The position numbers and the translations under genes are program-made. Of a DNA stretch of 32,000 nt, positions 973-30,838 are shown piece by piece. The notes under the pieces are model-generated. The model worked only from the letters and a program-made list of their open reading frames with translations, had not been told where the DNA came from and made no database searches. How positions within the stretch are numbered: position 1 is the first letter of the stretch; every line of letters starts with the position of its first letter. This DNA comes from Kiritimatiella glycovorans (GTDB lineage Bacteria; Verrucomicrobiota; Kiritimatiellia; Kiritimatiellales; Kiritimatiellaceae): the NCBI RefSeq assembly GCF_001017655.1, contig NZ_CP010904.1, positions 1,950,001 through 1,982,000 on the forward strand. The letters run 5' to 3'.

Positions 973-3900
973 ATGCACGACCATGATACGTACCGAGAAG
1001 GGACGCTGTTCGCCGTGCTTGCAGTTGCGGGGGTCGCGGCGGCGCTGCTCCATGTCCACATTCCCCATACGGACGTTCTGATCGACGGGCGCTGGGCCTT
1101 CGGCTTCATCGGTTTTGCGCTGTTGCGCCGATGGCGGGCGGCGCTGGCGCTGGCGGCCTTGCTTTCCTATCCGTATGGAACCCCGGACATTCCGGTCTGG
1201 GTCGGTTTCGGCGGCAATATGCTCTATGCGGTTCCGGCACTGCTGACGATCCGGGCGCTGGCGGCCTGGATGCTGCGGCGCTGGGGGGCGGGGTGGCGGT
1301 TCGGACTGGGTTGGGTGGTCCTGGTGCTGTTCTGCTATCAGGTGTTTACGACACCCGCGGTCTGGGGGGTGGTCGCCATGGTCGAGGATCGTCCGGTTCC
1401 AGCGGGCATCCTCGATGGCTGGCGCACACAGCCGTTCTTGATCGAGTCGTTACTGGTGGCCCTTTTTTCGGCCGCGACCATGGTGGCGACGCTGGCGCTG
1501 GGACGACTGAACGCCGAACGACGGCGACTTGAAGACCTCACCAGGAGTTTGAGCGCCAGTGAACAAACCACACATGCTCTGCTGAACGCCACGGCCGATG
1601 CCGCGTTTCTTATCGACGACTCGGGGACGATTAAGGCTGCCAACGAGGAGATGGCCCGACGTCTCGGGCAGGACAGGCAGTCTATGATCGGAACGAACAT
1701 CTACAGCCTGCTGCCGCCGGAGACCGCCGCCCGCCGGAGGGAATGGGTCGAACGCGTCGTGCGCAGCGGACGTCCCCTGACGGAAGAGGATGAGCGCGCG
1801 GGGCGCGTGATGCACCACAGCCTGTACCCCGTGCTCGATGATGCCGGGGATGTGACGGCCGTAGCGGTTTTCGCACGCGACATCACCGAGCGCAGGCAGG
1901 CTGAAGCTGCGCTGCGCGCGAGCGAAGCACGGTTTCGAAGCTATGTCGAGCACTCCCCCTACGGCGTGTTCGTTGCTGACGGCCGGGGCCGATACGTCGA
2001 TGTGAATCCGGCCTCGGAACGCATCACCGGCTACTCCGCCGAGCAGCTGACCACGATGAGCATTCCCGACCTCATCCCGCCCGAAAGCCGGGAAACGGCC
2101 GCGGCCCATTTTCGGCGCCTGACCGAAACCGGCGAGGCCAACACCGAAGTGGCCTTTGTGCGCGCCGACGGCAGCACCGGCCGCTGGACCGTGGCCGCGA
2201 CCCGAATCGGCCCGGATCGTTTCCTGGGCTTTGTCGAGGACATCACCGAGCGCAGAGAACGTGAAGAGCGCATCGCGCTGCTGGGAGGTATGCTGGACGA
2301 CGCGCCGGCCGCCATCACCATCCACGACACCGACGGCCATTTCCTCTTCTCCAACCGCCAGAATTGGCTCATGCACGGCTACGAAAGTGAAGACGAGTTC
2401 CTCGGCATCAATCTCCACCAGCTCGACGTGCCGGAGAGCGAGGCGCGGCTGGCCGAACGAATCCGGCACATCGCCGAGCGCGGCGAAGCCCGATTCGAGG
2501 TCGAACACTATCGCAGGGACGGCTCGACCTTCCCGCTCGGAGTCCTTGCCAAACGCATCGAATGGGAGGGCCGGCCGGCCATCCTGAGCATCGCCGCCGA
2601 TATCAGTGAGCGAAGGGAAGCACATGCGGCCCTGCAGGAAAGCGAGGCGCGCTTTCAGAAGATTCTCTCTCTCGTGCCGGACCTGATTACCGTGCAAGAC
2701 GCGGACATGAACATCCTATACAGCAACTGGAACGGGTTCGGCTGTATTCCGAAAGAACAGCGGGCTCTGAACACGAAATGCTACAGGACCTATCGCGGAT
2801 ACGAGCGGGTGTGCCCCGACTGTGAGGCGCTTGCCGCCTTGAAAAGCGGCGAGATGATTCATCGGGAAGTGCAGTTGCCCGATGGCCGTTGGTATGAACT
2901 GAGAATCATGCCTGCGCTGAAAGAAAGCGGTGACGCGGAAGCGTTTGTAGAGTGGGTGAGAGATATCACCGAGCGCAAGACCGTTGAAGCACAGCTTCGC
3001 CAGGCGCAGAAGATGGAGGCCGTCGGGCGGCTGGCGGGGGGCGTGGCCCATGACTATAACAATATCGTCATGGGCATCCTCAACTACGCACAGCTCTGCC
3101 GCGACGGCATCGTGGCCGACCACCCGATCCGCCCGTGGCTGGACGAAATCACCAGGGAAGCCCAGCGCTCCGCGAACCTGACGCGGCAGCTCCTCGCCTT
3201 TGCCCGCAAGCAGACCGTTGCCCCGCAAGCCGTCGACCTGAACGACGCGGTGGGGAACATGCTCAAAATGCTGCGCCGCCTCATCGGCGAGGACATCGAT
3301 CTGGCATGGAAACCGGGGGCGGGCCTGTGGGCGGTGCATATCGACCCGGGGCAGGTCGACCAGATCCTGGCGAATCTCTGCGCTAACGCGCGCGACGCCA
3401 TTAAAGGTGCCGGCAAAGTGACGATCGAAACCGGGAACGTCGCCATCGATGCCGATTACTGTGCGGAACACGAGGGCTTCAAACCGGGCGACTTCACGAC
3501 GCTTTCAGTCAGCGACGACGGGTGCGGCATGGATCGAGACACCCTCGATCATATCTTCGAGCCCTTCTTTACCACGAAGGGCATCGGAGAAGGAACCGGG
3601 CTGGGACTGGCGACCGTCTACGGCATCGCCAGGCAGAACGACGGGTTTGTCAACGTCTACAGCGAGCCCGGACAGGGCACGACCTTCCGCATCTATCTGC
3701 CACGCTTCGAGGGCGGGGAGCACAAACATGCGGAGCGCGAAAAGGCGGCGGAGTCACTCGGGGGCAAAGAGATCATCCTGCTGGTGGAAGACGAGAAGTC
3801 CATCCGCCTGACCATGCGCCTGTTCCTGGAGAAGCTCGGCTATACGGTGCTTGCGGCCGAAGATCCGAAGAAGGCCGCTGAGCTTGTGCGAGAACTCGCC

Positions 3901-4767: not shown

Positions 4768-5022
4768 AAGACGCGCCTTTCAGGGCCTATCTGAGCGGCG
4801 GAGAACAGCCGCCCGTCTGAGCAAGATCTCCGCAGAGACCGAGCCCCTGACGGCATGATAATCGTCGAAATCGCAATCCCGATCTCTGATCGGACGATGA
4901 TCTGGAGGGAATCCGGGATTCCGTGCTCTTTATGGTTGAGACGGGGCGACAGACGGCGCGTTGCCAAAGAGGGCCCGCTCCCGCCTGCCGGCGGGCGGGT
5001 CTGGAGTAGAAAAGGCAGGGAG

Positions 5023-5058
5023 CGATTACGCGTACGAGTACGATTATGATGACGAACA
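5023..5058. repeat. Degenerate hexamer-periodic array (CGNNTA)x6
   Basis: cgatta cgcgta cgagta cgatta tgatga cgaaca. This is the same motif class as the arrays at 7341-7376, 15979-16014 and 22164-22193. Confidence 0.5.
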
Positions 5059-5191
5059 CGGGAACCACGGGTGGAAGGAGCAATCGCGCCCTTAAAGGGA
5101 ATCCCGCCGACCGTTTCAGCCACCAGGGTCCCGGTCGTTCCCTGAAATTGGACGTGGCTGGCTCCACCCCTATCACATAAGGAGGTATCCT

Positions 5192-5653
5192 ATGGAACAA
5201 TGCGCACCCTTATTCTCACTGGTTGCAGTGGCTCTGTCTCTTCTCTCGCTGCTCTGCACAACCGTCATGGCCATGGAGGCACACCGCAGCAGCAACCGCC
5301 GGGCCAATGCGAGTTCCCTGGTCCAAACCTGGCTGGATATGCCTGAGGGAGAGGGCGATCCACTGAAGTTCCACGACATCTCGGCGAAGGATCTCAAGGA
5401 AGCCGATGTAACCCGGTCTGAGCTCTGCTATGCGGTCGCCAGCCTTATGGCCGGCTGGATCGAATACGACGCGGCACCGTTCTGGAAACGCGAGAAGGTG
5501 AAACGAAGTCAATTCGAAGTCGGCAGCTACCGCGGTAATTTCGTCCGCTCAATAGCTATGAAAAAGGCCTGGAAACTGATCTACAAAAAAATACTCGACC
5601 GTAACGACCCCTACACAAAAGCGATCCTCTACATCGTCGGCGACCCCGCCTAA
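5192..5653 (+). CDS. Hypothetical secreted/membrane-anchored protein (153 aa)
   Basis: Strong SD (taaggaggt) lies 5 nt upstream of the ATG. The N-terminal hydrophobic signal-like segment is LFSLVAVALSLLSLLCTTVMA. I recognise no family. Confidence 0.6.
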   Translation: MEQCAPLFSLVAVALSLLSLLCTTVMAMEAHRSSNRRANASSLVQTWLDMPEGEGDPLKFHDISAKDLKEADVTRSELCYAVASLMAGWIEYDAAPFWKREKVKRSQFEVGSYRGNFVRSIAMKKAWKLIYKKILDRNDPYTKAILYIVGDPA

Positions 5654-5791: not shown

Positions 5792-6880
5792 ATGGGTTCG
5801 AACGGTTCCGGGATCGCGGCCCGCGTCGTGGAACCGCACGAGGACGAGGCCTGGGACGCCCTGGTGGCGTCCTCTCCCACCGCCAACCGCTTCCTGCGCA
5901 GCGACTGTCTCCGCATGCTGGAGGAGACCGACTCGCTGGGCATCCGCTTCCGGCGCGTGGGGGTGTTCGACGACGCCGGCGCGCTGCGCGGAGGCTGGGC
6001 TTTGCCGACCATGCAGCGCATGGGCATCCGGGCGTCGACCTACTTCGAATTCTTCTACGCCGGCCCCATGCTCGCCCCCGACCTCGAGACCGGCTCCGTC
6101 CACGTCTGCCGCGAACGACTGGACGTGCTGCACGCGCTGGCGCAGGCCCAGACCCGGGAGCTGCACCTGATCGAGGCCGAGGGGCATCCGCGCTTTGTCG
6201 ACGCGCGCGGGCTCTGGTACGCCGGGTTCGAGCTCCAGACCCTCTACACCCACATCTGGCATTTCGGAAACCCGGACGACGTCTTTATGAAGATGAACCG
6301 GGAGCGCCGAAGGCTGATCCGCCGCGCCGACGAGTCCCTCCGTTTCGGCCTGCTCACATCCGACGACGTGGCGGAGGGGTTCGTACCCCTCTACAAACGG
6401 CTGATGCAGAAGTTCGACTGGCTGCCGGGCGAGCAGTGGAGCCGCGACCTGCAGGACCGCCTGCAGTGGCTCTGGGACCACGACGTGGGCGCGGTCTACG
6501 GCGCGTGGGACGAAAACGGCGCGCTGTGCGGCGCGGTCATCGTCCTGGTGAGCGAGGAGGACCGCACGATCTACCTCTGGCGCTGCGGCTACGACACCTC
6601 CCGCAAAGGCAATACGATCGTCCCGGCCCTCTACTGGCATGCCGCACAGCACTGGCTGCAGCAGTGGGGCGAACCCCTGGCCTGCAACCTCGGCGGATCG
6701 CCGCTGATCAGCCTGGCGCAGTTCAAGGACTATCTCGGCGCCGACGTGGTCCCGCACCTCCGGCTCGTCTACCGCCCCCTCCGTCCCCGCCCGGTCCTGT
6801 GGCGACTCGGTCGCGGGATCAAGGAAACCAGCCGCCGCAGACTGACGCGTACGCGCGTCTCTCTGCTCAATGAAGAGTAA
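5792..6880 (+). CDS. FemAB-like/GNAT (Acetyltransf_6, BioF2/CelD-like) acyltransferase
   Basis: ORF 5726..6880; the internal ATG at 5792 (MGSNGSGIAARVVEPHEDEAWDALV) gives the typical family N-terminus. The C-terminal motif ...CNLGGSPLISLAQFKDYLGA matches the FDFGG...L..FK..FG signature of this family. Confidence 0.75.
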   Translation: MGSNGSGIAARVVEPHEDEAWDALVASSPTANRFLRSDCLRMLEETDSLGIRFRRVGVFDDAGALRGGWALPTMQRMGIRASTYFEFFYAGPMLAPDLETGSVHVCRERLDVLHALAQAQTRELHLIEAEGHPRFVDARGLWYAGFELQTLYTHIWHFGNPDDVFMKMNRERRRLIRRADESLRFGLLTSDDVAEGFVPLYKRLMQKFDWLPGEQWSRDLQDRLQWLWDHDVGAVYGAWDENGALCGAVIVLVSEEDRTIYLWRCGYDTSRKGNTIVPALYWHAAQHWLQQWGEPLACNLGGSPLISLAQFKDYLGADVVPHLRLVYRPLRPRPVLWRLGRGIKETSRRRLTRTRVSLLNEE

Positions 6881-6982
6881 GATTAAGGCCCGACACTCTT
6901 GCACGGCATCGGAATCCTCCACCGCCGCATCGCGCAGCGCCTCCGGCCGGAAGAAGGATCCGGCCGATCTCGAATAAAAAGG

Positions 6983-7495
6983 TTCTTCGCAGATTTTTGT
7001 GGTGGAGCCGTTCGGGGAAGAGGCGGGATGGGGATTCACCACAGCGGTCACAGAGGATGCCGGGGTCGGGATGGGAGACGACAAACGTTCGTAGCAGCGC
7101 CGCAAGGCCCGGAGGGCCAAGGCGCGTGGTATCGTTCGTAGTAGCGCCGCACGCCTGCCCCCCGGCAGGCCAGGCGCGTGAAAGATAACGGCCCTGGCCC
7201 TGCTTCGCAGGCCTGCGGGCCTACTACGAACTTTTTCCGCTGCGCGGACCTGCGGGCCTACTACGAACGTAAGAGAGCGCGCACGATTTCTTTGCCTGTG
7301 CTCTTCTTATTCCTCTTTTGGGATCGCGCCTTCGGCGCTCCGAGTACGCGTACGAGTACGAGTAAGAGTACGAATTATGTTCACCCCTTCATGCTCTTCA
7401 TGTCCTTCATGGTGAATTCCGTTCTCTCTCTCACTCCGATATCCCGCATCCCACCTTTCCCGGGAGCCCTTCCAAAAAAAAATCCAAGAATAACC
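6983..7495. repeat. Mosaic intergenic repeat element, copy A (about 0.5 kb, BIME/MITE-like)
   Basis: Collinear with 15623-16123 at roughly 90% identity by eye, including an identical about 60-nt block attcaccacagcggtcacagaggatgccggggtcgggatgggagacgac. It also shares the hairpin units, UUCG hairpin, hexamer array, CTTCATG nonamers and terminal arm with the TTCCCGGGAG palindrome. It lies between convergent genes, and no credible CDS is present. Confidence 0.8.
7133..7231. repeat. About 95-nt REP-like long hairpin unit (type H2), inserted inside a split H1 unit (7086-7269)
   Basis: Arms cgttcgtagtagcgccgca ... tgcgggcctactacgaac are reverse complements (12 bp perfect, then imperfect). The flanking sequences 7086-7128 and 7237-7269 are the two halves of the H1 unit that is intact at 15713-15805. 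Confidence 0.75.
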
Positions 7496-7512
7496 AATAA
7501 AAAAGGACGCGG

Positions 7513-8997
7513 CTATGCGGCTTTTCTGCGCTTCCAGAGGGTCAGGGCGACAAAGAACGCAGCCAGCAGGAGCAGGGTCAGGGCGATCGGGCGCCCGCCG
7601 AAAAAGGCGTAGCTCCCCTCCCCCAGCACCAGCGCGCGGCGCAGGTTGGTCTCGGCCATGCCTCCCAGAATCAGCGCCAGCAGGAACGGGGCGGCGGGAA
7701 ATCCCGTTTTGCGCATCCCGACGCCCAGGACGCCGAATCCGAGCGCGACCCAGCAATCGACCGGATTGGCGCGCAGGGCGTAGGCCCCCATAAGCGAGAG
7801 CAGCAGGATGCCGGCGTTCAGGAAACGGCGATCGATTTTGAGCGCGCCCATGACCAGCCGCGCGGTCGAGAGGGCGGTCACGAACACGGCCAGGTGGGCG
7901 AAGAGCATGATGGCCAGGATAGAATACGCCAGCGGACCGTGATCCTGGAACAGCAGCGGGCCGGGCTGGATGCCGTGCAGAATAAAGGCCCCGATCAGCA
8001 CGGCGGTCACCGAGTCGCCCGGAATGCCCAGCGAGAGCAGCGGGATCATGGCCCCGGAGGTGGCGGCGGTCTTGCCCGATTCCGCCGCGGCGATCCCCTT
8101 CGGCTCGCCGTCCCCGTAGCGGTCGTCCGGCTTGGACTGCTGATTCGCCGCGCTGTAACAGAGAAAGGCCGCGATATCCGCCCCGGCCCCGGGCGTGCTG
8201 CCCGTAAAGGTCCCGATCAGCGAGGCCTTGAGGTTCATCCATCCGCAGCGCTTCATGTCGCGCCCGTGCGGCAGCTCGAAGAGTTTCATCTTCTTTCCGG
8301 CCGGAAGTTGCGGTGCGCCGCGGTCCGGAGAAAAGACCTCGGCTATCGCAAAAAGCCCGATCAGTACCGGGATGAACGGCATGCCCTCCATCAGGCTGAC
8401 ACTTCCGAACAGGAAGCGCGGGTAGCCGGAGACGGGGTCCATGCCCACCGTCGCGCAGAGCAGTCCCGCCAGGGTGGCGATGGCCCCCTTGAGCAGTGAT
8501 TCGCCCGAGAGCGCGGTGATCAGCGAGAGCCCCAGCACGGCCAGCGCGAAGAACTCGGCCGGTCCGAAACTGAGCGCGAAGCGCGAGATCTGCGGCGTGA
8601 GGAAGATCAGCAGCAGCGTCCCGATCACCCCGCCGATCAGCGCCGACCAGGCGGACAGCGCCAGCGCCCGGCCGGCCTCGCCGCGCTGCATCATGGGATA
8701 GCCGTCCATCAGCGTGGCCGCCGAGGCGGGCGTCCCGGGGGTGCGGAAGAGGATCGCGGGCACGGTCCCGCCGTAGATCGCGCCGCAGTAGATGCCCACC
8801 AGCAGCGCGATGGCCGGCATGATGTCGAGTTCGAACGTGAACGGCACCAGCAGCGCGACCCCCATCGTGGCGGAGAGCCCCGGCACCGCGCCGACCAGCA
8901 TCCCGGAGACGACTCCCGCCAGCAGACAGATCCATACGGCGGGCACGAGCATCAGATCGAGCGAGCCTGTCATGATCTCCATCATCAGCCTATCCAT
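7513..8997 (-). CDS. tctA: Tripartite tricarboxylate transporter (TTT) large permease TctA
   Basis: 494-aa polytopic membrane protein with typical TctA N-terminus (..GVVSGMLVGAVPGLSATMGVALLVPFTF..). The start may be the ATG at 8985, which overlaps the tctB stop as TGATG. Confidence 0.9.
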   Translation of the reverse strand: MDRLMMEIMTGSLDLMLVPAVWICLLAGVVSGMLVGAVPGLSATMGVALLVPFTFELDIMPAIALLVGIYCGAIYGGTVPAILFRTPGTPASAATLMDGYPMMQRGEAGRALALSAWSALIGGVIGTLLLIFLTPQISRFALSFGPAEFFALAVLGLSLITALSGESLLKGAIATLAGLLCATVGMDPVSGYPRFLFGSVSLMEGMPFIPVLIGLFAIAEVFSPDRGAPQLPAGKKMKLFELPHGRDMKRCGWMNLKASLIGTFTGSTPGAGADIAAFLCYSAANQQSKPDDRYGDGEPKGIAAAESGKTAATSGAMIPLLSLGIPGDSVTAVLIGAFILHGIQPGPLLFQDHGPLAYSILAIMLFAHLAVFVTALSTARLVMGALKIDRRFLNAGILLLSLMGAYALRANPVDCWVALGFGVLGVGMRKTGFPAAPFLLALILGGMAETNLRRALVLGEGSYAFFGGRPIALTLLLLAAFFVALTLWKRRKAA

Positions 8998-10429: not shown

Positions 10430-10506
10430 TCTCTTCAGGTCATTGAGGACACCGCGTTTTTCTATTCACTTTGTATTCTCTTTGTTCACTTTGATCTGTG
10501 GTGAAT

Positions 10507-10545
10507 CTCGATCCCGATTCCGATCCCGACACCGATTTTAATCCA
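10507..10545. repeat. Hexamer-periodic array variant (NNCGAT)x6, with flanking fragments of the mosaic repeat
   Basis: ctcgat cccgat tccgat cccgac accgat tttaat, preceded by ctgtggtgaat (reverse complement of attcaccacag from the mosaic elements). It is followed by cacttcatgtccttc (CTTCATG module). Confidence 0.5.
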
Positions 10546-10647
10546 CATCCGTGCTATCCGTGCCCTCCCCCGGCCCGATCACACTTCATGTCCTTCCCGT
10601 CCTCACGGCGGGCGCCGATCTCGATTCCAGGGGCGCCGTGTTCTTTC

Positions 10648-12810
10648 TCACGGCTCCAGCGCCGCGCGGCCCACGGTGTCCGTCGCCCCGGTGTAGCCGG
10701 GGCCGCCGCCGGCGAGGTAGCCGTCGCTGCGGCCGGAACGGTCCCGGCTGACCCAGAACGCGTAGAGTGAGCCGTCGGTCAGCTCGAATTGGAAGCGGAC
10801 GGGTGTGTCGGCCAGTTCCGAGAGATCGGCGCCGCCCTTCCATCTGACCGCCGCGAGCGTGCTGTCGACGGAGAGCGGTTTGCAGTTCTCGAGGGTGAAC
10901 GGGGGGATCGGCTCGCCGTTCTCGTCGAGCACGGCGGCGCGCAGGCGACCGCCGGGCGCATCGACATTCACGAAGAGGCGTTTGCCGGAAAAGGTGACCG
11001 GGCGGGTGGTCAGTGTGCCGGGATCCGCCCCGGCGTCCATTGAGGCGAACCCGTCGCGGCGCAAAACGGCGAGACCGGTCGCGCTGTTATCGTAAGTACC
11101 CATCCTATTGCCCGGTTTTCCCCGGTAACCGGTGTAGTAGAAAAAGAGCTTGTCGCCCATGATCGTACACACATTCCCCAGCGACTGCACATACCCGCGG
11201 GCCCAGGCATCGTGGCGTTCGGCGGGGATATGGACTCGGCGGTCCGGGCGGTGGAAGTGGAAGCCGTCGCGGCTGTAGGCGAACTGCAGCTCGGTGATCT
11301 TCGGCAGGCCCGCTTTGTGGCAGATCTCGTTCGGCGGCCCCCAGTGGAGCTGGAACTGGCCGAGCATGATGCTCTCGTAGGCCACCGCGTCGAAGTTGTA
11401 GAGCTGGGCGGGACGTCCGGTGAGGTAATCCACCTTTACGCCCCGATCCTCGTCGAGCATGTCGCCGTCGTTCTCGTCGGCGGTCAACCACGGGACTTCC
11501 TCTGCGTCCGTCCGCTGTGCGCCCGCGACGAAGTCGTCGCATTCGTAGTATTTGCGTGCGCGGCCGCGTCCGGGAAATCCGGCGCGGATGCTGTAGACCC
11601 ATTTTTGGCGGAAGGGATTATAGAAGTGGGTGCTGCGATCGCCCGCCGTGCCGGATTCGGTCCGCCGGTCCCAGTGGATGCCGTCCGCCGAGGTCAGACA
11701 GAATCCGGGTTGCGGCTTGCCGGGCGGCTGGATGAAGAGCGTCCATTTCTCCGCCGGTCGCGCAGCGTCCCAGTTGCGAACCACCGTCCAGGAGTCCGGG
11801 GTAATTCCTTCGGGATGAACGAGATTACCCTGCTCGGGCCACACATCATAGTTCGGACGTTCCCAGTGAATCCCGTCGCGGCTGGTCACTAGGGCGATCG
11901 GCCCGAACCACGAGGTCTCGTACCAGAGTTTGAAGTGCCCGGCGTCCGGATCCCACCAGCACCCGCCGCTCTTCGGGACCGCCCCGGCGTTGCCGTGTCC
12001 GGACGGTTTGGAGTGCCCCTCCGGCTCGACCTCGCCCCGCTCGACCGGCGTCTCGGGCTTGAGCACCGGGTTGCCCGCGTATTTCTCGGGCCGGTGGAAG
12101 GTCCGTTCGAGCGAGGTCTCCGCGATCAGGAAGTCGTCGATAAAGAGCTGGCGGCCGACGTCGATCGGGATGACCTCCGGCGGATGGTCGAGGTACGGCA
12201 CCGGCATCGGGCTGGTGTCCGAAGGATCGATATTCCGCGGCGGCCATTCCTCGGGCAGCCGGATGCCGTTGTAGAGCCGTTCGCCGGTATTTGCGCTCCA
12301 GGGTTTCTCTTCGTATTGAATGGCCTCCCCGAGCCCCACCGCCACGACAAACTTGTTGAATACGAATCGCTCCCCCGTGCGGACCTGTTTGCGGTAGGCG
12401 GCCACCCGGTTCCACGCCTCGTCGCCGAACAACTGAAACGAGGCGGAGTCGGGCACCCGCTCGAACCCGGCCGCTTCCAGCGCCTCGGCCTGCGATCCGT
12501 ATTTGGCACCGGGCACCGGCGTCAACACCGTCAGCGACCCCGGATCCAGCACGAGCCAGTCCTCCGGCTGAGCGATGCCGTTGCGCAGGAACGGCAGGCC
12601 GTGCAGGTCCTCCGGCACCTGGTCGGTGAGCGTGTAGCCGCGGTCGGTGAAGAGTTTGACGCCCGGTTCGAAGCGGGCGACCTCGCCCTTCCCGCGGAAT
12701 TGAAGCGAAGCGCCGGAATCGGCGTATGCGGGAGAGGCAAAGATAACTGAGCCGATCAGGATCAGGCAGGCTGCGACTGGAGCTCTCTTAATTTTGGTCA
12801 TTTCTTCCAT
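10648..12810 (-). CDS. Secreted glycoside hydrolase-like protein: signal peptide, novel about 125-aa N-terminal domain, beta-propeller core (GH43/32/68-clan-like), C-terminal beta-sandwich
   Basis: Signal peptide MEEMTKIKRAPVAACLILIGSVIFASPAYA. Repeated blade motifs are SRDGIHWERP, SADGIHWDRR and SRDGFHFHRP. The C-terminal region (RRDGFASMDA...GTLTTRPVTFSGKRLFVNVDA...VLDENGEPIPPF) resembles the GH32-type C-terminal sandwich. I could not assign a family from sequence alone. Confidence 0.75.
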   Translation of the reverse strand: MEEMTKIKRAPVAACLILIGSVIFASPAYADSGASLQFRGKGEVARFEPGVKLFTDRGYTLTDQVPEDLHGLPFLRNGIAQPEDWLVLDPGSLTVLTPVPGAKYGSQAEALEAAGFERVPDSASFQLFGDEAWNRVAAYRKQVRTGERFVFNKFVVAVGLGEAIQYEEKPWSANTGERLYNGIRLPEEWPPRNIDPSDTSPMPVPYLDHPPEVIPIDVGRQLFIDDFLIAETSLERTFHRPEKYAGNPVLKPETPVERGEVEPEGHSKPSGHGNAGAVPKSGGCWWDPDAGHFKLWYETSWFGPIALVTSRDGIHWERPNYDVWPEQGNLVHPEGITPDSWTVVRNWDAARPAEKWTLFIQPPGKPQPGFCLTSADGIHWDRRTESGTAGDRSTHFYNPFRQKWVYSIRAGFPGRGRARKYYECDDFVAGAQRTDAEEVPWLTADENDGDMLDEDRGVKVDYLTGRPAQLYNFDAVAYESIMLGQFQLHWGPPNEICHKAGLPKITELQFAYSRDGFHFHRPDRRVHIPAERHDAWARGYVQSLGNVCTIMGDKLFFYYTGYRGKPGNRMGTYDNSATGLAVLRRDGFASMDAGADPGTLTTRPVTFSGKRLFVNVDAPGGRLRAAVLDENGEPIPPFTLENCKPLSVDSTLAAVRWKGGADLSELADTPVRFQFELTDGSLYAFWVSRDRSGRSDGYLAGGGPGYTGATDTVGRAALEP

Positions 12811-15595: not shown

Positions 15596-15712
15596 ACGGA
15601 TCAAGTTGAAAAGGGGCTATGGGTGGATTTTTATGGAAGGGTTCCCGGGAAGAGAATGGGATTCACCACAGCGGTCACAGAGGATGCCGGGGTCGGGATG
15701 GGAGACGACAAC

Positions 15713-15805
15713 CGTTCGTAGTAGCGCCGCAAGGCCCGGAGGGCCAAGACGCGTGAAGATAACGGCCCTTGTCCGCTGCGCGGACCTGCGGGCCTACTAC
15801 GAGCG
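15713..15805. repeat. About 93-nt REP-like hairpin unit H1
   Basis: cgttcgtagtagcgccgca...tgcgggcctactacgagcg; the terminal 12 nt are near-perfect reverse complements with an imperfect extension. Confidence 0.75.
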
Positions 15806-15812
15806 TGAAGAA

Positions 15813-15907
15813 GTTCGTAGTAGCGCCGCACGCGCCCGAAGGGCCAAGGCGCGTGAAAGATAACGGCCCTGGCCCTGCTTCGCAGGCCTGCGGGCCTACT
15901 ACGAACG
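15813..15907. repeat. About 95-nt REP-like hairpin unit H2 (tandem to H1)
   Basis: gttcgtagtagcgccgcacgcgcccgaagggccaaggcgcgtgaaagataacggccctggccctgcttcgcaggcctgcgggcctactacgaacg; nearly identical to 7133-7231. Confidence 0.75.
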
Positions 15908-16183
15908 TAAGAGAGAACGCACGATCTCTTTGCCTGTGCTCTTCTCATTCATCTTTTGGGATCGCGCCTTCGGCGCTTCGAGTACGCGTACGAGTACGAG
16001 TGCGAGTACGAATGATGTTCACCCCTTCATGCTCTTCATGTCCTTCATGGTGAATCCCATTCTCTCTCCCCCTCCGATCTACCGCATCCCACCTTTCCCG
16101 GGAACCCTTCCATAAAGACCCACGAATGACCGATTTTTTACTAGGGTTTCAGGTCTCGGCCGACCTGCCCTTCCCGGCACCGC

Positions 16184-17911
16184 TCATTCAGCCGCGAACA
16201 GCGGCACGGCCCATTTTCCGAATTCGATCACCTCTCCGGCCGCGCATGTCTTCTGGTACAGCGAGCACAGGTTGGCGGGATAGGACGTGTGCTCGAAGAG
16301 GTTGAATTCGGACAGCGCGACTTTCTCGAAGCCCTGGGCTTCGAGCTTCGCCGACTGGCTTCCGCTCGGATTGCGGTCGGGCAAAGGCGTGGCGAAATAG
16401 ACCACCCCCGCCCGGGAAACGGTCACCGATTTATCGCCGTCGATCGGCACCTGCAGGAAGCGGGCTCCCTTGAGCGCCTCGGGACATTCGGACAGCGCGT
16501 AGCCGCGGTCCGTGAAGAGCTTCGCGCCCGGATCGAACGCGAGTACCTGCACTTCGCCCGCGGCGAACGCGCCGACGGGTGAGCGGCGCAGCGCCGCTCC
16601 GTCGGCGTTGTCGCGCGGCGGGTTTTCGTCCCGCTTCCACTGCGGCGTCGCCTCCCGGGCGCCCTGATGGCGCGGGTTGCGGGCCAGCCCCTTGTCGATC
16701 ACCTGCCGGAAGAGGGCCTTTCCGGAAACCGGCTCGCCGGCCGCGACGTCCTGCTCGGTGAAGGCCGCCATCAGGATTTCTTTCGCGTGGTGGCGCTCGC
16801 GGTCGTAGATCACGTAGATCGTGCCGTCGTCGGCCTGCGTGGCGTCCGGGTAGGAAACATGGGAGCGCTCGTCGATCATCAGGCCGCCGGTCCAGCTCTC
16901 TCCGTCGTCGTCGGACAGGAAGGCCATCAGGCGCTCGCGCCGCCCGGTTTTCTCGCCGGGTTCTCCGTGCTTGACGAGCAGCAGCTTACCGGACTGCAGA
17001 CGGCCGATGTAGAAGCGGGCGACGGTGTGCTCGATGTCGGAGGGCTCCATCGGGGTCCAGGTCTTTCCCTGGTCGCGGGAAAAGCTCTCGCCGATGCCGT
17101 AGTTCATGCGGCTGAGCAGCCACAGCGAACCGTCCTCGCGCTGCACCACCTGGTTCTCGTCGCAGTTACGCCCCTCGGGCATCGGCACATGGCCGCGGAA
17201 CTCGAAGGTCCTGCCCTTGTCGGTGGAAAACAGCGGCCGGAACGGCAGCCGTCCACCGCCCTCGGCACGGGTCAGCGTACCCACCGGCCAGACCCAGGTG
17301 CCGTCGGAGAGCACGGTCGGCTTGTTCATGTGGCCGTAGTCGGTGGCGATAAGCTGCGGCGAATCCCACTCCGGCGACGGGTCGCCGGGGTTATCGGTGG
17401 TGATCGCCCACAGCTGCATGCCGCGGCACTGGTTCTCGAGCACAAAGGTCCGGTAGGAACGGATATCGTCGAAGCGCTTTTTCATATCCGCGGCGTTATC
17501 AGTCGTATAGCGGATCGGCCAGATGCTGAAGGTGAACCACATGCGGTCGTCCGGATCCATCCAGAGCCCGGCATAGGAGGCCCGGAACGGCGGATCGATG
17601 ACCATCTGCGGATCGGACCACGTGCGGCCGCCGTCGCCGCTGGTGGCCAGCATCACGATATTGCTCCAGCCCTCGCCGGTGTCGCCCGAGTCCCACGTCG
17701 CCCACAGGCGTCCGTTGGGGGCGGCGCTGATCCCGAACGAGCAGACGAACATGCGGTTTTCCGCATCGTACTCCGGACCGGGATCGGTGACGACATAGGG
17801 CATATGCGGCCAGCGCGGGGCCTGCTCCGGGTCGCTGTAGTCGGCGGCCGGCAGCGACAGTGCGGACAGCAGGACGGTCAGGGCGGTCAGTTTTTTTATC
17901 GTCTTTTTCAT
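16184..17911 (-). CDS. Secreted BNR/Asp-box (sialidase-superfamily, GH33-like) beta-propeller protein with a C-terminal about 125-aa domain shared with the GH at 10648-12810
   Basis: Start at ATG 17911 (MKKTIKKLTALTVLLSALSLPA signal peptide; SD caggaga). There are four Asp-boxes: SGDGGRTWS, STDKGRTFE, SRDQGKTWT, SDDDGESWT. I did not see a FRIP motif, so true sialidase activity is not established. Confidence 0.85.
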   Translation of the reverse strand: MKKTIKKLTALTVLLSALSLPAADYSDPEQAPRWPHMPYVVTDPGPEYDAENRMFVCSFGISAAPNGRLWATWDSGDTGEGWSNIVMLATSGDGGRTWSDPQMVIDPPFRASYAGLWMDPDDRMWFTFSIWPIRYTTDNAADMKKRFDDIRSYRTFVLENQCRGMQLWAITTDNPGDPSPEWDSPQLIATDYGHMNKPTVLSDGTWVWPVGTLTRAEGGGRLPFRPLFSTDKGRTFEFRGHVPMPEGRNCDENQVVQREDGSLWLLSRMNYGIGESFSRDQGKTWTPMEPSDIEHTVARFYIGRLQSGKLLLVKHGEPGEKTGRRERLMAFLSDDDGESWTGGLMIDERSHVSYPDATQADDGTIYVIYDRERHHAKEILMAAFTEQDVAAGEPVSGKALFRQVIDKGLARNPRHQGAREATPQWKRDENPPRDNADGAALRRSPVGAFAAGEVQVLAFDPGAKLFTDRGYALSECPEALKGARFLQVPIDGDKSVTVSRAGVVYFATPLPDRNPSGSQSAKLEAQGFEKVALSEFNLFEHTSYPANLCSLYQKTCAAGEVIEFGKWAVPLFAAE

Positions 17912-17931
17912 GGCATCTCCTGTTTGCGGGA

Positions 17932-18639
17932 TCACATGATCCCGTACGTATCGAAGGCCTCACGGGCGCCCATTCCGCCCCGGATGGCCTTCAGCACGGT
18001 CTTTTCGCCGCGGGCCTTTTCGATCGCCCGGACGAACACCTCGGTTTCGATCTCGCGGGGAACGACGCAGACACCGTCCATATCCCCGAAGACGATATCG
18101 CCGTCCGCCACGCGCACGCCCTCGATCTCCAGCGGGACGCGGAAATCGAGGACCTTGCCGCGCGGGGCCTGGTCCTGGGCGTAGCGCCCGTAGGAGAAGC
18201 AGGGGAAGTCCTGCGCCAGGATACCGCGCGTATCGCGCGAATAGCCGTTTACGACCGCGCCGGTCGCCCCGCGCTGAATCGCGCACGCGCTCATCAGCTC
18301 GCCCCACAGGGCGTACGACGGCGATGCACCGCTGCAGACATAGACCTCGTTCGGGCGCAGGTCGTCGAGCGCCTCGAGCATCAGGCCGAACGGTCGTCCG
18401 AGCAGCGGGTTGCGCTCCGCGGGTTCCGCGATCGGCGGCACATCCGCCTCCAGCACCGGCATCGCCCTCCCGACGGCCACCATATCCTTCCGCAGCGGTT
18501 TGATCCGCGGCGGCAGGAACTGGTGCAGCAGCCCCATCTTATCCATGATATCGCCTACCACGGCGGTGTACAGCTCCCCGCGCGCGAGCGCGAACAGCTC
18601 CTCGTCATCGTTCCACATCATCGAATCACCCTTCCTCAT
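17932..18639 (-). CDS. RraA family protein (class II 4-hydroxy-2-oxoacid aldolase / oxaloacetate decarboxylase-like)
   Basis: 235 aa with an RraA/HMG-aldolase-like core (..VYVCSGASPSYALWGELMSACAIQRGATGAVVNGYSRD.. and ..GDIVFGDMDGVCVVP..). The start overlaps the transporter stop (ATGA); an alternative ATG at 18621 has a ggaaggg SD. Confidence 0.8.
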   Translation of the reverse strand: MRKGDSMMWNDDEELFALARGELYTAVVGDIMDKMGLLHQFLPPRIKPLRKDMVAVGRAMPVLEADVPPIAEPAERNPLLGRPFGLMLEALDDLRPNEVYVCSGASPSYALWGELMSACAIQRGATGAVVNGYSRDTRGILAQDFPCFSYGRYAQDQAPRGKVLDFRVPLEIEGVRVADGDIVFGDMDGVCVVPREIETEVFVRAIEKARGEKTVLKAIRGGMGAREAFDTYGIM

Positions 18640-21926: not shown

Positions 21927-22040
21927 CGCCGCCACCGACCCGCCTTTCCCGGCGGTCCCCTTTCCTGACTTCAACATTGCCCGAAGACGCGCTCGAATCC
22001 CCCTGTGAACATTGAAGTGAGTTTTGAATCAGGGTGTCCC

Positions 22041-22280
22041 GGCGGAAAAAAAGGGTTATTCGTGGATTTTTATGGAAGGGTTCCCGGGAAAGGTGGGATG
22101 CGGCAGATCGGAGGGGAGAGAGAACCATGAAGAACATGAAGGTTGGTTGAGGAGGGGGACATATACTCGTACTCGCACTCGTACGCGTACTCGGAGCGCC
22201 GAAGGCGCGATCCCACTCCCCCGATTCAAGGAATTCGAGTACGAGTACCGCTTCGCTGAGTACGAGTACGATATTCCCCC
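22041..22280. repeat. Truncated, inverted copy C of the mosaic repeat (terminal arm, CATGAAG module, inverted hexamer arrays around the UUCG-type hairpin)
   Basis: 22058-22125 matches the reverse complement of 16066-16131 (attcgtgg.tttatggaagggttcccgggaaaggtgggatgcgg.agatcggagg). Hexamers tactcg x5 lie at 22164-22193, hairpin gcgccgaaggcgc at 22196-22208, and the opposing array cgagtacgagtac...gagtacgagtacg at 22235-22272. The copy is flanked by the 9-bp direct repeat gggtgtccc (22032-22040 and 22281-22289). Confidence 0.7.
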
Positions 22281-22311
22281 GGGTGTCCCCATGTTGAACT
22301 CAGGCCCTTTG

Positions 22312-23382
22312 TCAGGCAGGAAGGTCCGACCTGTATGCGGCGATCCACCCGCCGCCGAGGACGCGGTCGCCGTCGTAGAAGACGGCGGCCTGGCCGGGGG
22401 TGAGGGCGAACTGCGGTTCGTCGAAGCGGACCTCGGCTTCCCCGCCTGCGTACTTCACCTGCGCGAACCCGCCGCGGTGGCGGTAGCGCGGCTGAACGCG
22501 GCATCGCAACGTTCCCTCCGCGGGCGGATCGACCAGCCAGTTGAGCGCGCGAACCGTGCACGAGGAATGGAGGAGGTGTGACCGGGGCGCGAGTGTGATC
22601 TCGTTTTTCGCGGGGTCGATATGCGCCACATGGCGGCGTTCACCGGTGGCGACCCCGATGCCGGTGCGCTGACCGAGGGTGTAGAGGTGATATCCACCGT
22701 GTTTTCCGATCACCGCCCCGGTCTCATCGCGGACGAGGCCCTCCCCAGTAAGATCGGGGTGCAGCGAAGCGACCAGCGCGCCCCGCGATACGTGATCGGT
22801 GAAACAGAGGTCCTGGCTCTCGCGGCTGGGCCGGACGGGCAGGCGGCGCCGTCTCGCTTCGGCCTTCACGTCCTCCTTATGCCACGCGCCCAGCGGGAAG
22901 CGGATCTTCGGAAGGCGGGGGCGGTCGATCCGGTGCAGGAAATACGACTGATCCTTGTGCGAATCCGCGCCGCGGAGCAGCCGGACCTCCCCTTTCCGAT
23001 CCTCGAGGCGGGCGTAATGACCCGTGGCCAGCAGCCCGCAGCCGTGTTCCGCGGCGGCGTCCATCAGGAACCCGAACTTCATGGTCTCATTGCAGACGAT
23101 GCAGGGGGAAGGCGTGCGGCCCGAGGCGTACTCGCGGGCGAACGGAAGAATCACGCTCGTGCGGAACCTCTCGCGCGCATCGACCGTGACGTGCCTGATG
23201 CCGAGGTGTTCACAGATCTCCTCCGCCCGGCGGGCGTCGTCCCCGCCCCCGCCGGGCGGATCGACAAACCGCGCCGTCAGGCCCAGTACCTCCCGGCCCT
23301 CGTCGAGCAGCAATGCGGCGGCCACAGCGCTGTCCGTCCCGCCGCTGAGTCCGATCGCGATGGTATGTCGGGGGTTGGACAA
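22312..23382 (-). CDS. mnmA: tRNA 2-thiouridine(34) synthase MnmA
   Basis: 356 aa. It has the PP-loop IAIGLSGGTDSAVAA, then ..TPSPCIVCNETMKFG.. and ..LLATGHYAR.., the canonical MnmA motifs. The start codon is TTG at 23382. Confidence 0.9.
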   Translation of the reverse strand: MSNPRHTIAIGLSGGTDSAVAAALLLDEGREVLGLTARFVDPPGGGGDDARRAEEICEHLGIRHVTVDARERFRTSVILPFAREYASGRTPSPCIVCNETMKFGFLMDAAAEHGCGLLATGHYARLEDRKGEVRLLRGADSHKDQSYFLHRIDRPRLPKIRFPLGAWHKEDVKAEARRRRLPVRPSRESQDLCFTDHVSRGALVASLHPDLTGEGLVRDETGAVIGKHGGYHLYTLGQRTGIGVATGERRHVAHIDPAKNEITLAPRSHLLHSSCTVRALNWLVDPPAEGTLRCRVQPRYRHRGGFAQVKYAGGEAEVRFDEPQFALTPGQAAVFYDGDRVLGGGWIAAYRSDLPA

Positions 23383-30538: not shown

Positions 30539-30625
30539 CAAGGAATCCTCCCTTTTGGATCTGCGGCCCGAGGTGCATATGGGAGACACCATCGCCGATT
30601 TCAGCGATTTTTTCAATACCGGGGT

Positions 30626-30779
30626 CAGCAGTTCTCATTATGGCCGCATTCCGACCGCGGACGGCGTGGCAGCCGTCCCTCCCGAGTCGATATCCGACGC
30701 CTTTTCGGGCATTGGGAGGGTCGGGTTCCACCCCGACCGAACCCGACCGAAAAGGGTGAAGCCATAATGAGAATCGCTG
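30626..30779. mobile_element. 154-bp MITE-like element with 19-bp terminal inverted repeats and a 9-bp target-site duplication
   Basis: Left TIR cagcagttctcattatggc (30626-30644); the right TIR reverse complement is cagcgattctcattatggc (30761-30779), matching 17/19. The direct repeat taccggggt abuts both ends (30617-30625 and 30780-30788). The interior is a set of GC-rich hairpins with no ORF. Confidence 0.65.
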
Positions 30780-30806
30780 TACCGGGGTCGCGATGAACGG
30801 GTGGAC

Positions 30807-30838
30807 GAAAAAAGCCCGGGGCTCACGCACCGGGCTTA
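30807..30838 (-). terminator. Rho-independent terminator after rplQ
   Basis: The minus strand reads AGCCCGG-tgcgtgagcc-CCGGGCT followed by TTTTTT, about 25 nt after the rplQ stop. Confidence 0.7.

What the first reader, a model, noticed from the sequence alone, without database searches (positions are those of the whole stretch)
15598..16156. About 0.5-kb mosaic (BIME-like) intergenic repeat with long terminal inverted repeats; at least three copies in 32 kb
Copy B (15623-16123) and copy A (about 6983-7495) are collinear at roughly 90% identity over about 500 bp. A truncated inverted copy C lies at 22041-22280, and scrambled fragments lie at about 5020-5100 and 10495-10600. Each full copy is bounded by inverted arms containing the 10-bp palindrome TTCCCGGGAA. 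In B, the reverse complement of 15623-15667 equals 16049-16123 except for a 31-nt indel. Between the arms the module order is fixed. It runs: a 60-nt conserved block, two about 95-nt hairpin units, a pyrimidine-rich tract, a GCGCC-UUCG-GGCGC hairpin, a hexamer array (CGAGTA-like x6), (CTTCATGNN)x3, and a TCTCTC tract. No credible protein is encoded; six-frame ORFs across it give low-complexity strings such as RTRTRTR and HEGHEEHEG. This density of a large structured non-coding element is unusual. It could be a non-autonomous mobile element, a family of 3'UTR or stand-alone structured RNAs, or a protein-binding scaffold. I do not recognise it as a described RNA or repeat family.
Basis: seen in the sequence. 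Interest (0 to 1): 0.75.

Follow-up and report, generated by a model that had tools for sequence, protein, structure and literature searches.

The report
Composite palindromic repeat carrying REP hairpins
Three copies of a roughly 0.5-kb non-coding repeat lie at operon ends in this Kiritimatiella glycovorans stretch; it is a new family of a familiar kind of bacterial "junk" repeat (REP/BIME or MITE type), not a new kind of genetic element.

Summary
The window is Kiritimatiella glycovorans chromosome. It carries two full copies (A 6973-7503, B 15598-16156) and one short inverted copy (C 22041-22280) of a non-coding, strongly palindromic element. One 34-nt relic lies at 5023-5056.

The two "~95-nt hairpin units" are recognisable. 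Each is a head-to-head pair of GTAG-tagged REP hairpins (GTTCGTAGTAG-stem-loop ... stem-loop-CTACTACGAAC). GTAG-tagged REPs are a described superfamily, also known from Verrucomicrobia and Planctomycetes. The two dimers are tandem in B but nested in A, so module order is not fixed.

Around them sit 65-95-nt inverted arms, a 60-nt block, a GCGCC-UUC-GGCGC hairpin, and hexamer and nonamer arrays.

There is no Rfam hit, no protein family hit, and no homologue in plasmids, phages, 185,579 species genomes, JGI metagenomes or ~100 kb of relatives. The source genome itself was not searchable, so genome-wide copy number, empty sites and a partner transposase remain untested.

Best reading (about 0.55): a lineage-specific BIME/MITE-like selfish DNA repeat, tolerated at operon 3' ends and possibly homogenised by gene conversion. 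It is a new member of a known kind, of moderate-to-low interest.

The parts
15598..16156 (+). Copy B, full element (reference copy). Lies between the sialidase stop (16184) and the KDPG-aldolase start (15519), both on the - strand.
   Evidence: RNA fold z -9.2 (+) and -8.6 (-); gene
15604..15668 (+). B left inverted arm: outer part 15604-15651 (contains TTCCCGGGAA at 15642-15651) plus inner part 15651-15668 (AGAGAATGGGATTCACCA)
   Evidence: I5; 18-nt 100% inverted match
15658..15713 (+). Conserved ~56-60-nt block GGGATTCACCACAGCGG...GACGACAACC (94-97% identical between A and B)
   Evidence: D5
15712..15808 (+). REP dimer u1. The GTAG-tagged hairpin (GTTCGTAGTAG-GCGCC..GGCGC) and its inverted partner (GGCCC..GGGCC-CTACTACGAGC) are separated by the spacer AAGATAAC.
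   Evidence: CM 106 bits
15811..15909 (+). REP dimer u2, in tandem with u1
   Evidence: CM 123 bits
15909..15956 (+). Pyrimidine-rich tract (90% A vs B)
15964..15976 (+). GCGCC-TTC-GGCGC hairpin (5 bp stem, triloop); invariant in A, B and C
15979..16012 (+). Hexamer array (CGAGTA-like, about 6 units)
   Evidence: D3
16023..16049 (+). Nonamer array (YCCTTCATG-like x3). On the - strand it reads as an SD-preceded micro-ORF, 16060->16019, MGFTMKDMKSMKG*.
   Evidence: read directly from the sequence
16048..16142 (+). B right inverted arm: inner part 16048-16065, right-arm-specific insert 16066-16094, outer part 16095-16142 (TTCCCGGGAA at 16095-16104)
   Evidence: I1 and I5
6973..7503 (+). Copy A, between convergent genes (GNAT-like, stop 6880; TctA, stop 7513). 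It is bounded by the perfect 8-nt direct repeat AATAAAAA (6973-6980 and 7496-7503), which abuts the tips GGTTCTTC... and ...GAATAACC. The left arm is degenerate.
7085..7271 (+). A's REP region. The u1 5' hairpin (7087-7128), then GTAT, then complete u2 (7133-7231), then TTTTT, then the u1 3' hairpin (7237-7270). This is a dimer nested inside a dimer.
   Evidence: (fold -113 kcal/mol, z -6.8)
22041..22280 (-). Copy C, short and inverted, between convergent AraC-type (stop 21926) and MnmA (stop 22312). It has no REP dimers, no 60-nt block and no second arm. It is flanked by GGGTGTCCC (22032-22040 and 22281-22289).
22046..22116 (+). C's single arm (right-arm type, 92% complementary to B 16069-16139)
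   Evidence: I1 and I4; D14
22164..22272 (+). C's hexamer array plus GCGCC hairpin (22164-22215), followed by an inverted second hexamer array (22232-22272). Together they form a long hairpin.
   Evidence: I2, I3 and I11
5023..5056 (+). Solo, degenerate hexamer-array relic in the 4768-5191 spacer
   Evidence: D3 (82-85%, E 2e-5 to 2e-4)

Best explanation
This is a lineage-specific, non-coding, composite extragenic repeat of the REP/BIME-MITE kind.

Anatomy:
- A shell with long imperfect terminal inverted repeats. The consensus tip is about GGTTATTCGTGGATTTTTATGGAAGGGTTCCCGGGAA.
- Inside the shell are a 60-nt block, one or two head-to-head dimers of GTAG-tagged REP hairpins, a small GC hairpin, and short hexamer and nonamer arrays.

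How it most likely works:
- It behaves as DNA-level selfish or dispersed repeat DNA.
- Whole composites were copied to new intergenic sites by a transposase supplied in trans (inferred).
- The REP dimers may additionally move or rearrange on their own, which would explain tandem in B versus nested in A (inferred).
- Copies persist only at operon 3' ends, where they do no harm.
- Their interiors stay similar through gene conversion, while their edges decay (inferred).
- Any effect on transcription termination or mRNA stability would be a by-product (inferred).

Shown: the anatomy, the repetition, the REP-type hairpins, the non-coding nature and the position at gene ends.
For: Repetition and form:
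- Three dispersed copies occur in both orientations. They share blocks of 92-97% identity but differ by rearrangements.
- Long inverted arms are present, with the arm core found 4 times against 0.04 expected.

REP assignment:
- Eight REP cores sit in four inverted pairs, against 0.23 expected.
- Each half-unit is its own hairpin. The two stem types, GCGCC/GGCGC and GGCCC/GGGCC, differ by two adjacent double-compensatory swaps. The inner hairpins keep pairing with different sequences (GGCCC-GGA-GGGCC, GCCC-GAA-GGGC, GCCTGCC-CCCC-GGCAGGC).
- This matches published features of GTAG REPs: an unpaired terminal GTAG, head-to-head heterodimers, conserved spacers, and location between convergent or co-directional genes close to 3' ends. 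Precedents exist for REP dimers embedded in larger palindromes and for GTAG REPs in Opitutus and Rhodopirellula (PMC3733652).

Position and mobility:
- All three copies sit 9-31 nt from a stop codon, two between convergent genes and one between co-directional genes.
- Direct repeats of 8, 8 and 9 nt flank A, B and C. About 5% of random sites show a flanking repeat of 8 nt or more. A's AATAAAAA abuts both tips.

DNA level rather than RNA or protein:
- Both strands fold equally well.
- Arms do not co-evolve within a copy.
- No Rfam family matches and no Pfam family matches ORFs across the copies.

Host context:
- The genome carries 75 transposase genes (PMC5148204).
- The family is absent from every other collection searched, as expected for a species-specific repeat in an isolated lineage. 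The best RpoA relative is only 82% identical.
Against: - Only three copies are known, all within 15.3 kb.
- The termini are the least conserved part (left arm 64%, right arm 82%, interior 90-97%). This is the opposite of active MITEs.
- The flanking direct repeats lie at different offsets from the tips. B's CGGCCGAC is part of a palindrome (TCGGCCGA) that also recurs in A's left flank, so it may not be a target-site duplication.
- No solo REP hairpin occurs in any other spacer of the 32 kb. This is unlike the high-copy REP families described in the literature.
- No transposase or RAYT gene lies in the window.
Confidence: 0.55

Rival explanations
1. It is a family of functional structured RNAs. 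These would be operon-end (3'-UTR) elements or stand-alone sRNAs, with the conserved interior under selection as RNA. They might protect mRNA 3' ends, terminate transcription in both directions, or titrate a protein through the repeated GGA/AAGGA-rich purine strand.
For: - Predicted folding is very strong (z -5.6 to -9.2).
- Hairpins are kept through compensatory changes.
- The interior is better conserved than the edges.
- Copies sit 9-31 nt downstream of stop codons, where no canonical terminator is predicted. One terminator is present after rplQ.
- An A-run and a T-run flank B's long stem, as in bidirectional terminators.
- Published work argues that many REPs are transcribed and act as RNA (PMC3733652).
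Against: - Folding is symmetric between strands, so it carries no G-U strand signature.
- Arm pairing is not maintained in A, and arms do not co-vary within copies.
- C lacks most modules, and its fold is not significant on one strand (z -0.65).
- Orientation relative to transcription is informative only for B.
- No promoter-like or terminator-like consensus lies inside or at the edges.
- No Rfam match.
- With three near-identical copies, covariation power is minimal.
Confidence: 0.15
2. It is a purely local feature. The three copies arose by local duplication or recombination around two sugar-acid/sialic-acid catabolic cassettes (TctCBA...Eda between A and B; sialidase...AraC between B and C). 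On this view they are not a dispersed family and are perhaps relics of how these cassettes were assembled or acquired.
For: - All copies lie within 15.3 kb and exactly bracket two operon-sized gene blocks.
- Exact-pattern scans found no other copy anywhere.
- No solo modules occur elsewhere in the window except one hexamer relic.
Against: - The scans could not see the source genome, so the absence is uninformative.
- The copies differ by module-level rearrangements and by very unequal divergence (64% to 97%). This is better explained by exchange with further family members.
- One copy is inverted.
- REP-type hairpins are, wherever described, multi-copy genome-wide (PMC2817692, PMC3733652).
- GC content shows no island signature.
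Confidence: 0.15
3. It is a domesticated protein-binding scaffold or chromosome-structuring site. This would resemble the BIME, IHF and gyrase sites of E. coli, with the hexamer and nonamer arrays and the palindromic TTCCCGGGAA core acting as binding sites.
For: - Short tandem arrays (6-nt x6, 9-nt x3) and a 10-bp palindrome are the most invariant parts across A, B and C.
- Arm conservation is at the sequence level rather than the pairing level.
- BIMEs bind several proteins (PMC2817692 abstract).
Against: - No binding protein is known or testable here.
- The arrays are present on one side only.
- Three copies cannot distinguish constraint from recent common ancestry or gene conversion.
Confidence: 0.1

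Closest known systems
GTAG-tagged REPs and their head-to-head (HH) dimers / REPINs (Di Nocera et al. 2013, PMC3733652; Nunvar et al. 2010, PMC2817692)
   Same: - Each half of the ~97-nt units is an imperfect GC-rich stem-loop with a terminal GTAG (GTTCGTAGTAG...).
- The halves are paired with GTAG ends outside (HH), as heterodimers with alternative complementary stem residues and a conserved short spacer.
- They are extragenic, close to 3' ends, and lie between convergent or co-directional genes.
- GTAG REPs are known in PVC bacteria (Opitutus terrae, Rhodopirellula baltica).
   Different: - Only 8 hairpins were seen, all inside the two large composites, with none solo in 32 kb.
- Abundance (>100 per genome) and an associated RAYT gene could not be tested.
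- The stem is short (5 bp), followed by an internal loop and a second 4-7-bp stem.
BIMEs of Enterobacteria, and REP dimers embedded in longer palindromes (Anabaena GTAG-15, Halothiobacillus CGTC-1; PMC3733652 section 7)
   Same: It is a mosaic of REPs in inverted orientation interleaved with other conserved motifs. The REP dimers sit inside a larger palindromic sequence that is not found without them.
   Different: - The shell here is about ten times larger (0.5 kb, with 65-95-nt arms).
- It contains extra tandem arrays.
- A REP-free variant (copy C) exists.
- In copy A the REPs run -> -> <- <- (nested) rather than alternating.
- There is no sequence similarity to any described BIME.
Bacterial MITEs (Correia/NEMIS, RUP, ERIC, Nezha and others; reviewed in PMC3184786)
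   Same: It is non-coding, with terminal inverted repeats. It is dispersed in intergenic DNA in both orientations, with truncated and variant copies, strong predicted secondary structure, and candidate 8-9-nt flanking direct repeats.
   Different: - It is larger than most MITEs (70-300 bp).
- The termini are the least conserved part.
- Target-site duplications are inconsistent.
- No parent IS has been identified.
Pneumococcal BOX elements (boxA-boxB(n)-boxC; cited from my own knowledge: Martin et al. 1992, Croucher et al. 2011)
   Same: It has a modular build. Terminal modules are complementary to each other, and a variable number or arrangement of internal hairpin-forming modules lies between them. 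BOX elements are likewise intergenic.
   Different: It is unrelated in sequence and host phylum. The internal modules here are GTAG REP dimers. Size and arrays differ.

Membership tests
GTAG-tagged REP superfamily | Small imperfect palindrome (stem-loop) with an unpaired GTAG (or variant) at one end | tested here: met
   All 8 half-units read (T/C)TCGTAG(T/C)AG followed by a self-complementary GC-rich stem-loop. The 8th (A-u1 3' half) is truncated and lacks its 3' stem strand. The definition comes from PMC3733652.
GTAG-tagged REP superfamily | Frequent pairing into inverted dimers (HH or TT), often heterodimers with alternative complementary stem residues | tested here: met
   There are four HH pairs. 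Left-half stems are GCGCC/GGCGC and right-half stems are GGCCC/GGGCC, two compensatory swaps apart.
GTAG-tagged REP superfamily | High copy number, spread through the genome | not testable with these tools
   The source genome is held out. Within the window there are 8 hairpins, only inside copies A and B.
GTAG-tagged REP superfamily | A RAYT (Y1 transposase) gene flanked by the same REPs | not testable with these tools
   No transposase gene lies in the window.
BIME | Regularly spaced REPs in alternating orientation, separated by conserved non-REP motifs | tested here: inconclusive
   B has -> <- -> <- with the conserved spacer (A)AAGATAAC. A has -> -> <- <- (nested).
MITE | Short non-coding element with terminal inverted repeats | tested here: met
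   Arms: I5 and the inner 18-nt IR. There are no Pfam hits, and indels separate the copies. At 0.53-0.56 kb it is at the top of the MITE size range.
MITE | Target-site duplications of constant length directly abutting the inverted-repeat tips | tested here: inconclusive
   A has a perfect 8-nt AATAAAAA abutting both tips. In B and C the 8- and 9-nt flank repeats are offset 4-23 nt from the tips, and B's repeat is palindromic and partly shared with A's flank.
MITE | A parent IS or transposase recognising the same termini; termini conserved among copies | tested here: inconclusive
   Terminus conservation is not met: the termini are the most divergent part (64-82% against 90-97% for the interior). 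The parent IS is not testable (genome inaccessible). There is no match in plasmids or phages.
Any Rfam RNA family | Covariance-model score at or above the gathering threshold | tested here: not met
   Only tRNA-Arg passes in the window. The best sub-threshold hits on B have E 0.8-8.
Integron attC / gene-cassette recombination site | R''-L''...L'-R' (RYYYAAC...GTTRRRY) sites at cassette 3' ends, with a nearby integron integrase | tested here: not met
   No GTTRRRY-type ends are present (the sequence reads GTTCGTA). No integrase lies in the window. At ~0.5 kb the element far exceeds attC size (57-141 bp, cited from my own knowledge).

The most novel reading that the evidence does not exclude
The composite may be more than decaying selfish DNA. 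It could be a domesticated operon-boundary module of Kiritimatiella, acting as RNA or as cruciform DNA. On this reading its interior (REP dimers, GC hairpin and hexamer/nonamer arrays) is held at 90-97% identity by selection while the arms drift. It would act as a bidirectional terminator or insulator, or as a protein-titrating element, at the ends of catabolic operons. Its REP dimers would still be active enough to insert into one another (the nested copy A), which implies a functioning RAYT-type system in Kiritimatiellota.
Probability: 0.12. Interest if true: 0.55.

Novelty: new member of a known kind. Interest (0 to 1): 0.3.

Why it matters
If the family proves genome-wide, it would be the first repeat family described for the phylum Kiritimatiellota. 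It would also be a large example of REP dimers packaged inside a bigger palindromic shell. The nested-versus-tandem pair gives a direct view of how such mosaics are rebuilt.

In practice it matters for annotation, because spurious ORFs of 105-185 aa cross the copies. It also matters for assembly and rearrangement analysis, because B and C are inverted 71-nt/52-nt homologies bracketing a 5.9-kb sialidase cluster. Finally, it bears on the interpretation of operon-end transcription in this organism. It does not open a new class of biology.

Tried and rejected
1. Known RNA family: Rfam gathering scan of the window and a permissive scan of B found nothing.
2. Protein-coding: ORFs 15631-15948(-), 7178-7612(+) and 22024-22581(+) have no Pfam hit, and the copies differ by indels. 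The SD-preceded micro-ORF made by the nonamers varies in length (13, 9 and 7 aa) and is judged incidental.
3. More copies or homologues:
   - The exact 22-mer and 18-mer arm patterns in 185,579 species genomes gave 0 hits and 28 single chance hits with no other module.
   - JGI metagenomes gave 23 chance hits.
   - IMG/VR gave 1 chance hit inside a phage gene.
   - Plasmids gave one 32-nt chance hit and phages gave none.
4. Fetching the rest of the source genome: look-ups of window proteins, and of the K. glycovorans sialidase (P0001) and RpoA (P0121), all returned 'not on record'. The genome is held out.
5. Empty-site test in relatives: the closest available relatives (sialidase 80% and 65% identical, RpoA at most 82%) show no synteny at any of the three sites. 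They also have no copy by blastn, nhmmer or covariance model over ~100 kb.
6. Target-site duplication as proof of transposition: suggestive but inconsistent (and sequence reading). An inversion between B and C does not reconcile the flanks.
7. Strand asymmetry of folding as a test for RNA function: none found.
8. Integron attC and composite-transposon readings: no integrase or transposase is present, and the tips face the wrong way.
9. Literature: the K. glycovorans genome paper mentions 75 transposases and 12 islands but not these repeats, and no supplement text is held. The supplement of the HUH-endonuclease survey does not list the organism.
10. ISL3-like tips (GG(C/T)TCTTCG, 8-bp AT-rich duplication): this is only a resemblance recalled from memory and was not tested.
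Full report
**Source and context.** The window is chromosomal DNA of Kiritimatiella glycovorans. The sialidase-family gene at 16184-17935(-) and the partial rpoA at 31260-32000(-) are 100% identical to NCBI proteins of that organism, on a 2,949,723-bp contig. The region encodes ordinary housekeeping and catabolic genes:
- tRNA-Arg and a PAS histidine kinase;
- TctCBA, a TIM-barrel enzyme, a PfkB kinase and KDPG aldolase;
- the sialidase, an RraA-like aldolase, Nramp, a URO-D-like protein and an AraC-type regulator;
- MnmA, a type II/IV secretion ATPase, a secretin, and rplQ-rpoA.

GC content is even at about 0.55-0.70.

- Repeat finding, alignment, blastn and nhmmer all recover two full copies and one short inverted copy.
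- A versus B shares a 240-nt block at 92% and a 98-nt block at 97%.
- B versus C shares a 71-nt arm (92% complementary) and a 52-nt core (94-96%).
- The arm core WTGGAAGGGYTCCCGGGAA occurs four times against 0.04 expected from shuffles.
- B's ends form a two-part inverted repeat. 15604-15651 pairs with 16095-16142, and 15651-15668 pairs with 16048-16065. The right arm carries an extra ~29-31 nt.
- B and A fold far better than shuffled controls on both strands (z -9.2 and -8.6 for B; -6.6 and -5.6 for A).

Several details of the finding need correcting.
- Identity is strongly module-dependent: left arm 64%, interior modules 90-97%, right arm 82%.
- A's arms lack the exact TTCCCGGGAA palindrome.
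- The small hairpin is GCGCC-UUC-GGCGC.
- The 10.5-kb 'fragment' is not significant, whereas the hexamer relic at 5023-5056 is.
- C is a variant with an inverted duplication of its hexamer array.
- The module order is not fixed.

**What the hairpin units are.** Each ~97-nt unit begins GTTCGTAGTAG and ends CTACTACGAAC.
- The core TTCGTAGTAGSSCCGCA occurs eight times, as four inverted pairs, only inside A and B. Shuffles give 0.23.
- Each half is a hairpin in its own right. Left halves use the stem GCGCC/GGCGC and right halves use GGCCC/GGGCC, so two adjacent base pairs are swapped on both sides.
- The inner hairpins keep pairing although their sequences differ: GGCCC-GGA-GGGCC, GCCC-GAA-GGGC and GCCTGCC-CCCC-GGCAGGC on the 5' side, and GTCCGC-TGC-GCGGAC versus GGCC(C)TGC-TTC-GCAGGCC on the 3' side, including a T-A to C-G exchange.
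- A conserved spacer, (A)AAGATAAC, separates the halves.

This matches the published anatomy of GTAG-tagged REPs arranged as head-to-head heterodimers. Those are stem-loops with a terminal GTAG, with alternative complementary stem residues and conserved spacers. They lie between convergent or co-directional genes close to 3' ends. They have been reported from eight phyla, including Opitutus terrae (Verrucomicrobia) and Rhodopirellula baltica (PMC3733652). The same paper describes REP dimers embedded inside longer palindromic sequences in Anabaena and Halothiobacillus. That is the closest precedent for the overall design seen here.

**Tandem versus nested.** In B the two dimers are tandem (15712-15808 and 15811-15909). 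In A, dimer u2 (7133-7231) sits inside dimer u1. The 5' hairpin of u1 (7087-7128) and its 3' hairpin (7237-7270) flank u2. Seventeen nucleotides of u1 (its spacer plus GGCCCTTGT) are replaced by GTAT-u2-TTTTT. The 187-nt region folds as a hairpin within a hairpin (-113 kcal/mol, z -6.8). The u2 copies of A and B differ mainly in one inner hairpin. Either the dimers inserted independently or the region was rebuilt by template switching or recombination. I cannot tell which.

**The rest of the element.** Around the REP part lie several further modules:
- the arms, with consensus tip about GGTTATTCGTGGATTTTTATGGAAGGGTTCCCGGGAA;
- a 56-60-nt block;
- a pyrimidine-rich tract;
- the GC hairpin;
- about six CGAGTA-like hexamers;
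- three YCCTTCATG nonamers.

On the opposite strand the nonamers read as a Shine-Dalgarno-preceded micro-ORF: MGFTMKDMKSMKG in B, MKDMKSMKG in A and MKNMKVG in C. Its length is not conserved and I treat it as incidental. Longer ORFs across the copies have no Pfam match. No Rfam family matches.

**DNA or RNA?**
- Both strands fold about equally well.
- Arms within one copy are no more similar than arms of different copies: A-left/A-right 65%, B-left/B-right 78%, B-right/C 90%. The long stem is therefore not maintained by compensatory change. What is conserved is sequence.
- No sigma-70-like promoter or intrinsic-terminator consensus lies in or next to the copies. A canonical terminator does follow rplQ.

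These points favour a DNA-level repeat, but with three copies they are weak.

**Mobility.**
- All three copies have flanking direct repeats of 8, 8 and 9 nt. About 5% of random sites in this window show a repeat of 8 nt or more.
- In A, AATAAAAA directly abuts both inverted-repeat tips (GGTTCTTC... and ...GAATAACC). This looks like a classical 8-bp target duplication.
- In B and C the repeats (CGGCCGAC, GGGTGTCCC) are offset from the tips.
- CGGCCGA is part of a palindrome that also recurs in A's left flank, so it may belong to the element or to its target.
- The termini are the least conserved part, unlike active MITEs.

A simple explanation is that these copies are no longer mobile and that gene conversion homogenises the interiors but seldom reaches the edges. 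That is an inference.

**Distribution.** I could not count copies genome-wide. Look-ups of K. glycovorans proteins return nothing, and none of the collection scans returned a K. glycovorans record.
- Scans of 185,579 species genomes, JGI metagenomes, IMG/VR, plasmids and phages gave only chance seed matches with no second module.
- The nearest organisms in the protein database are only 80-82% identical in RpoA.
- Their loci are not syntenic at any of the three sites. They carry no copy by blastn, nhmmer or a covariance model of the REP dimer.
- The family therefore appears restricted to this isolated lineage, which is usual for such repeats.
- The very unequal divergence between modules argues that further family members exist or existed as exchange partners.
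- The genome paper reports 75 transposase genes but does not mention these repeats (PMC5148204).

**Position.** A lies between convergent genes, with its bounding repeat 9 nt from the TctA stop. C also lies between convergent genes, 22-31 nt from the MnmA stop. B lies 19-27 nt after the sialidase stop and about 75 nt upstream of the aldolase start, leaving an AT-rich promoter-like spacer intact. This is the distribution described for REPs and MITEs. It is what purifying selection against harmful insertions would produce, so it does not by itself show function.

**Verdict.** The finding is a real, previously undescribed repeat family. Its kind is known: a BIME/MITE-like composite built around GTAG-tagged REP dimers. 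I put about 0.55 on the selfish-DNA reading, 0.15 on a functional RNA, 0.15 on a purely local relic and 0.1 on a protein-binding scaffold. The single decisive step is a scan of the complete K. glycovorans chromosome for further copies and for a RAYT or IS partner.

Noticed in passing
L025:5141-5668 and L025:6641-6787 (ENA ERZ10759711 NODE_6610, a relative with an 80%-identical sialidase): The last 65 nt of the sialidase gene are duplicated 463 nt downstream (89% identical). About 150 nt of the intervening ~400 nt recur at 6641-6787 (92%). This looks like an unrelated insertion element that duplicated or carried the gene's 3' end. A further 300-nt repeat (55-354 and 6865-7164, 96%) lies next to paralogous genes.
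   Followed up: partly
window 10648-12810 (-) and 16184-17935 (-): The 720-aa protein with no Pfam family shares a 126-aa domain (39% identity) with the C-terminal end of the sialidase-family protein. This is an unannotated shared domain in two neighbouring catabolic clusters.
   Followed up: no
window 16019-16060 (-), 7381-7410 (-), 22127-22150 (+): A micro-ORF preceded by a GGAGG-rich tract is created by the (CATGAAGNN)3 nonamers: MGFTMKDMKSMKG, MKDMKSMKG and MKNMKVG. Length and start are not conserved, so it is probably incidental.
   Followed up: partly
window 4880-5110: The 424-nt spacer upstream of 5192-5653 holds the hexamer relic (5023-5056). It also holds a palindrome GGAATCCGGGATTCC (4908-4922) followed by CTCTTTATGG, which is reminiscent of the arm motifs. 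It may be an old, scrambled copy. Apart from the hexamer array, it is not statistically supported.
   Followed up: partly
window 16069-16139 vs 22046-22116, and 15957-16008 vs 22164-22215: B and C provide 71-nt (92%) and 52-nt (94%) inverted homologies that bracket the 5.9-kb sialidase/RraA/Nramp/URO-D/AraC block. This is a potential substrate for inversion of that block.
   Followed up: no
window 30803-30830 (-): A canonical intrinsic terminator (GC hairpin plus T-run) follows rplQ. None is predicted at the three operon ends occupied by the repeat.
   Followed up: partly
window 30619-30644 and 30761-30786: A 26-nt inverted repeat (81%) with a 116-nt spacer lies in the secretin-rplQ intergenic region. 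Its nature is unknown.
   Followed up: no
window 1879-3000: Direct repeats with a 360-nt period (GACATCACCGAGCGCA...) lie inside the 1071-aa histidine kinase. They correspond to its tandem PAS domains. They are ordinary.
   Followed up: yes
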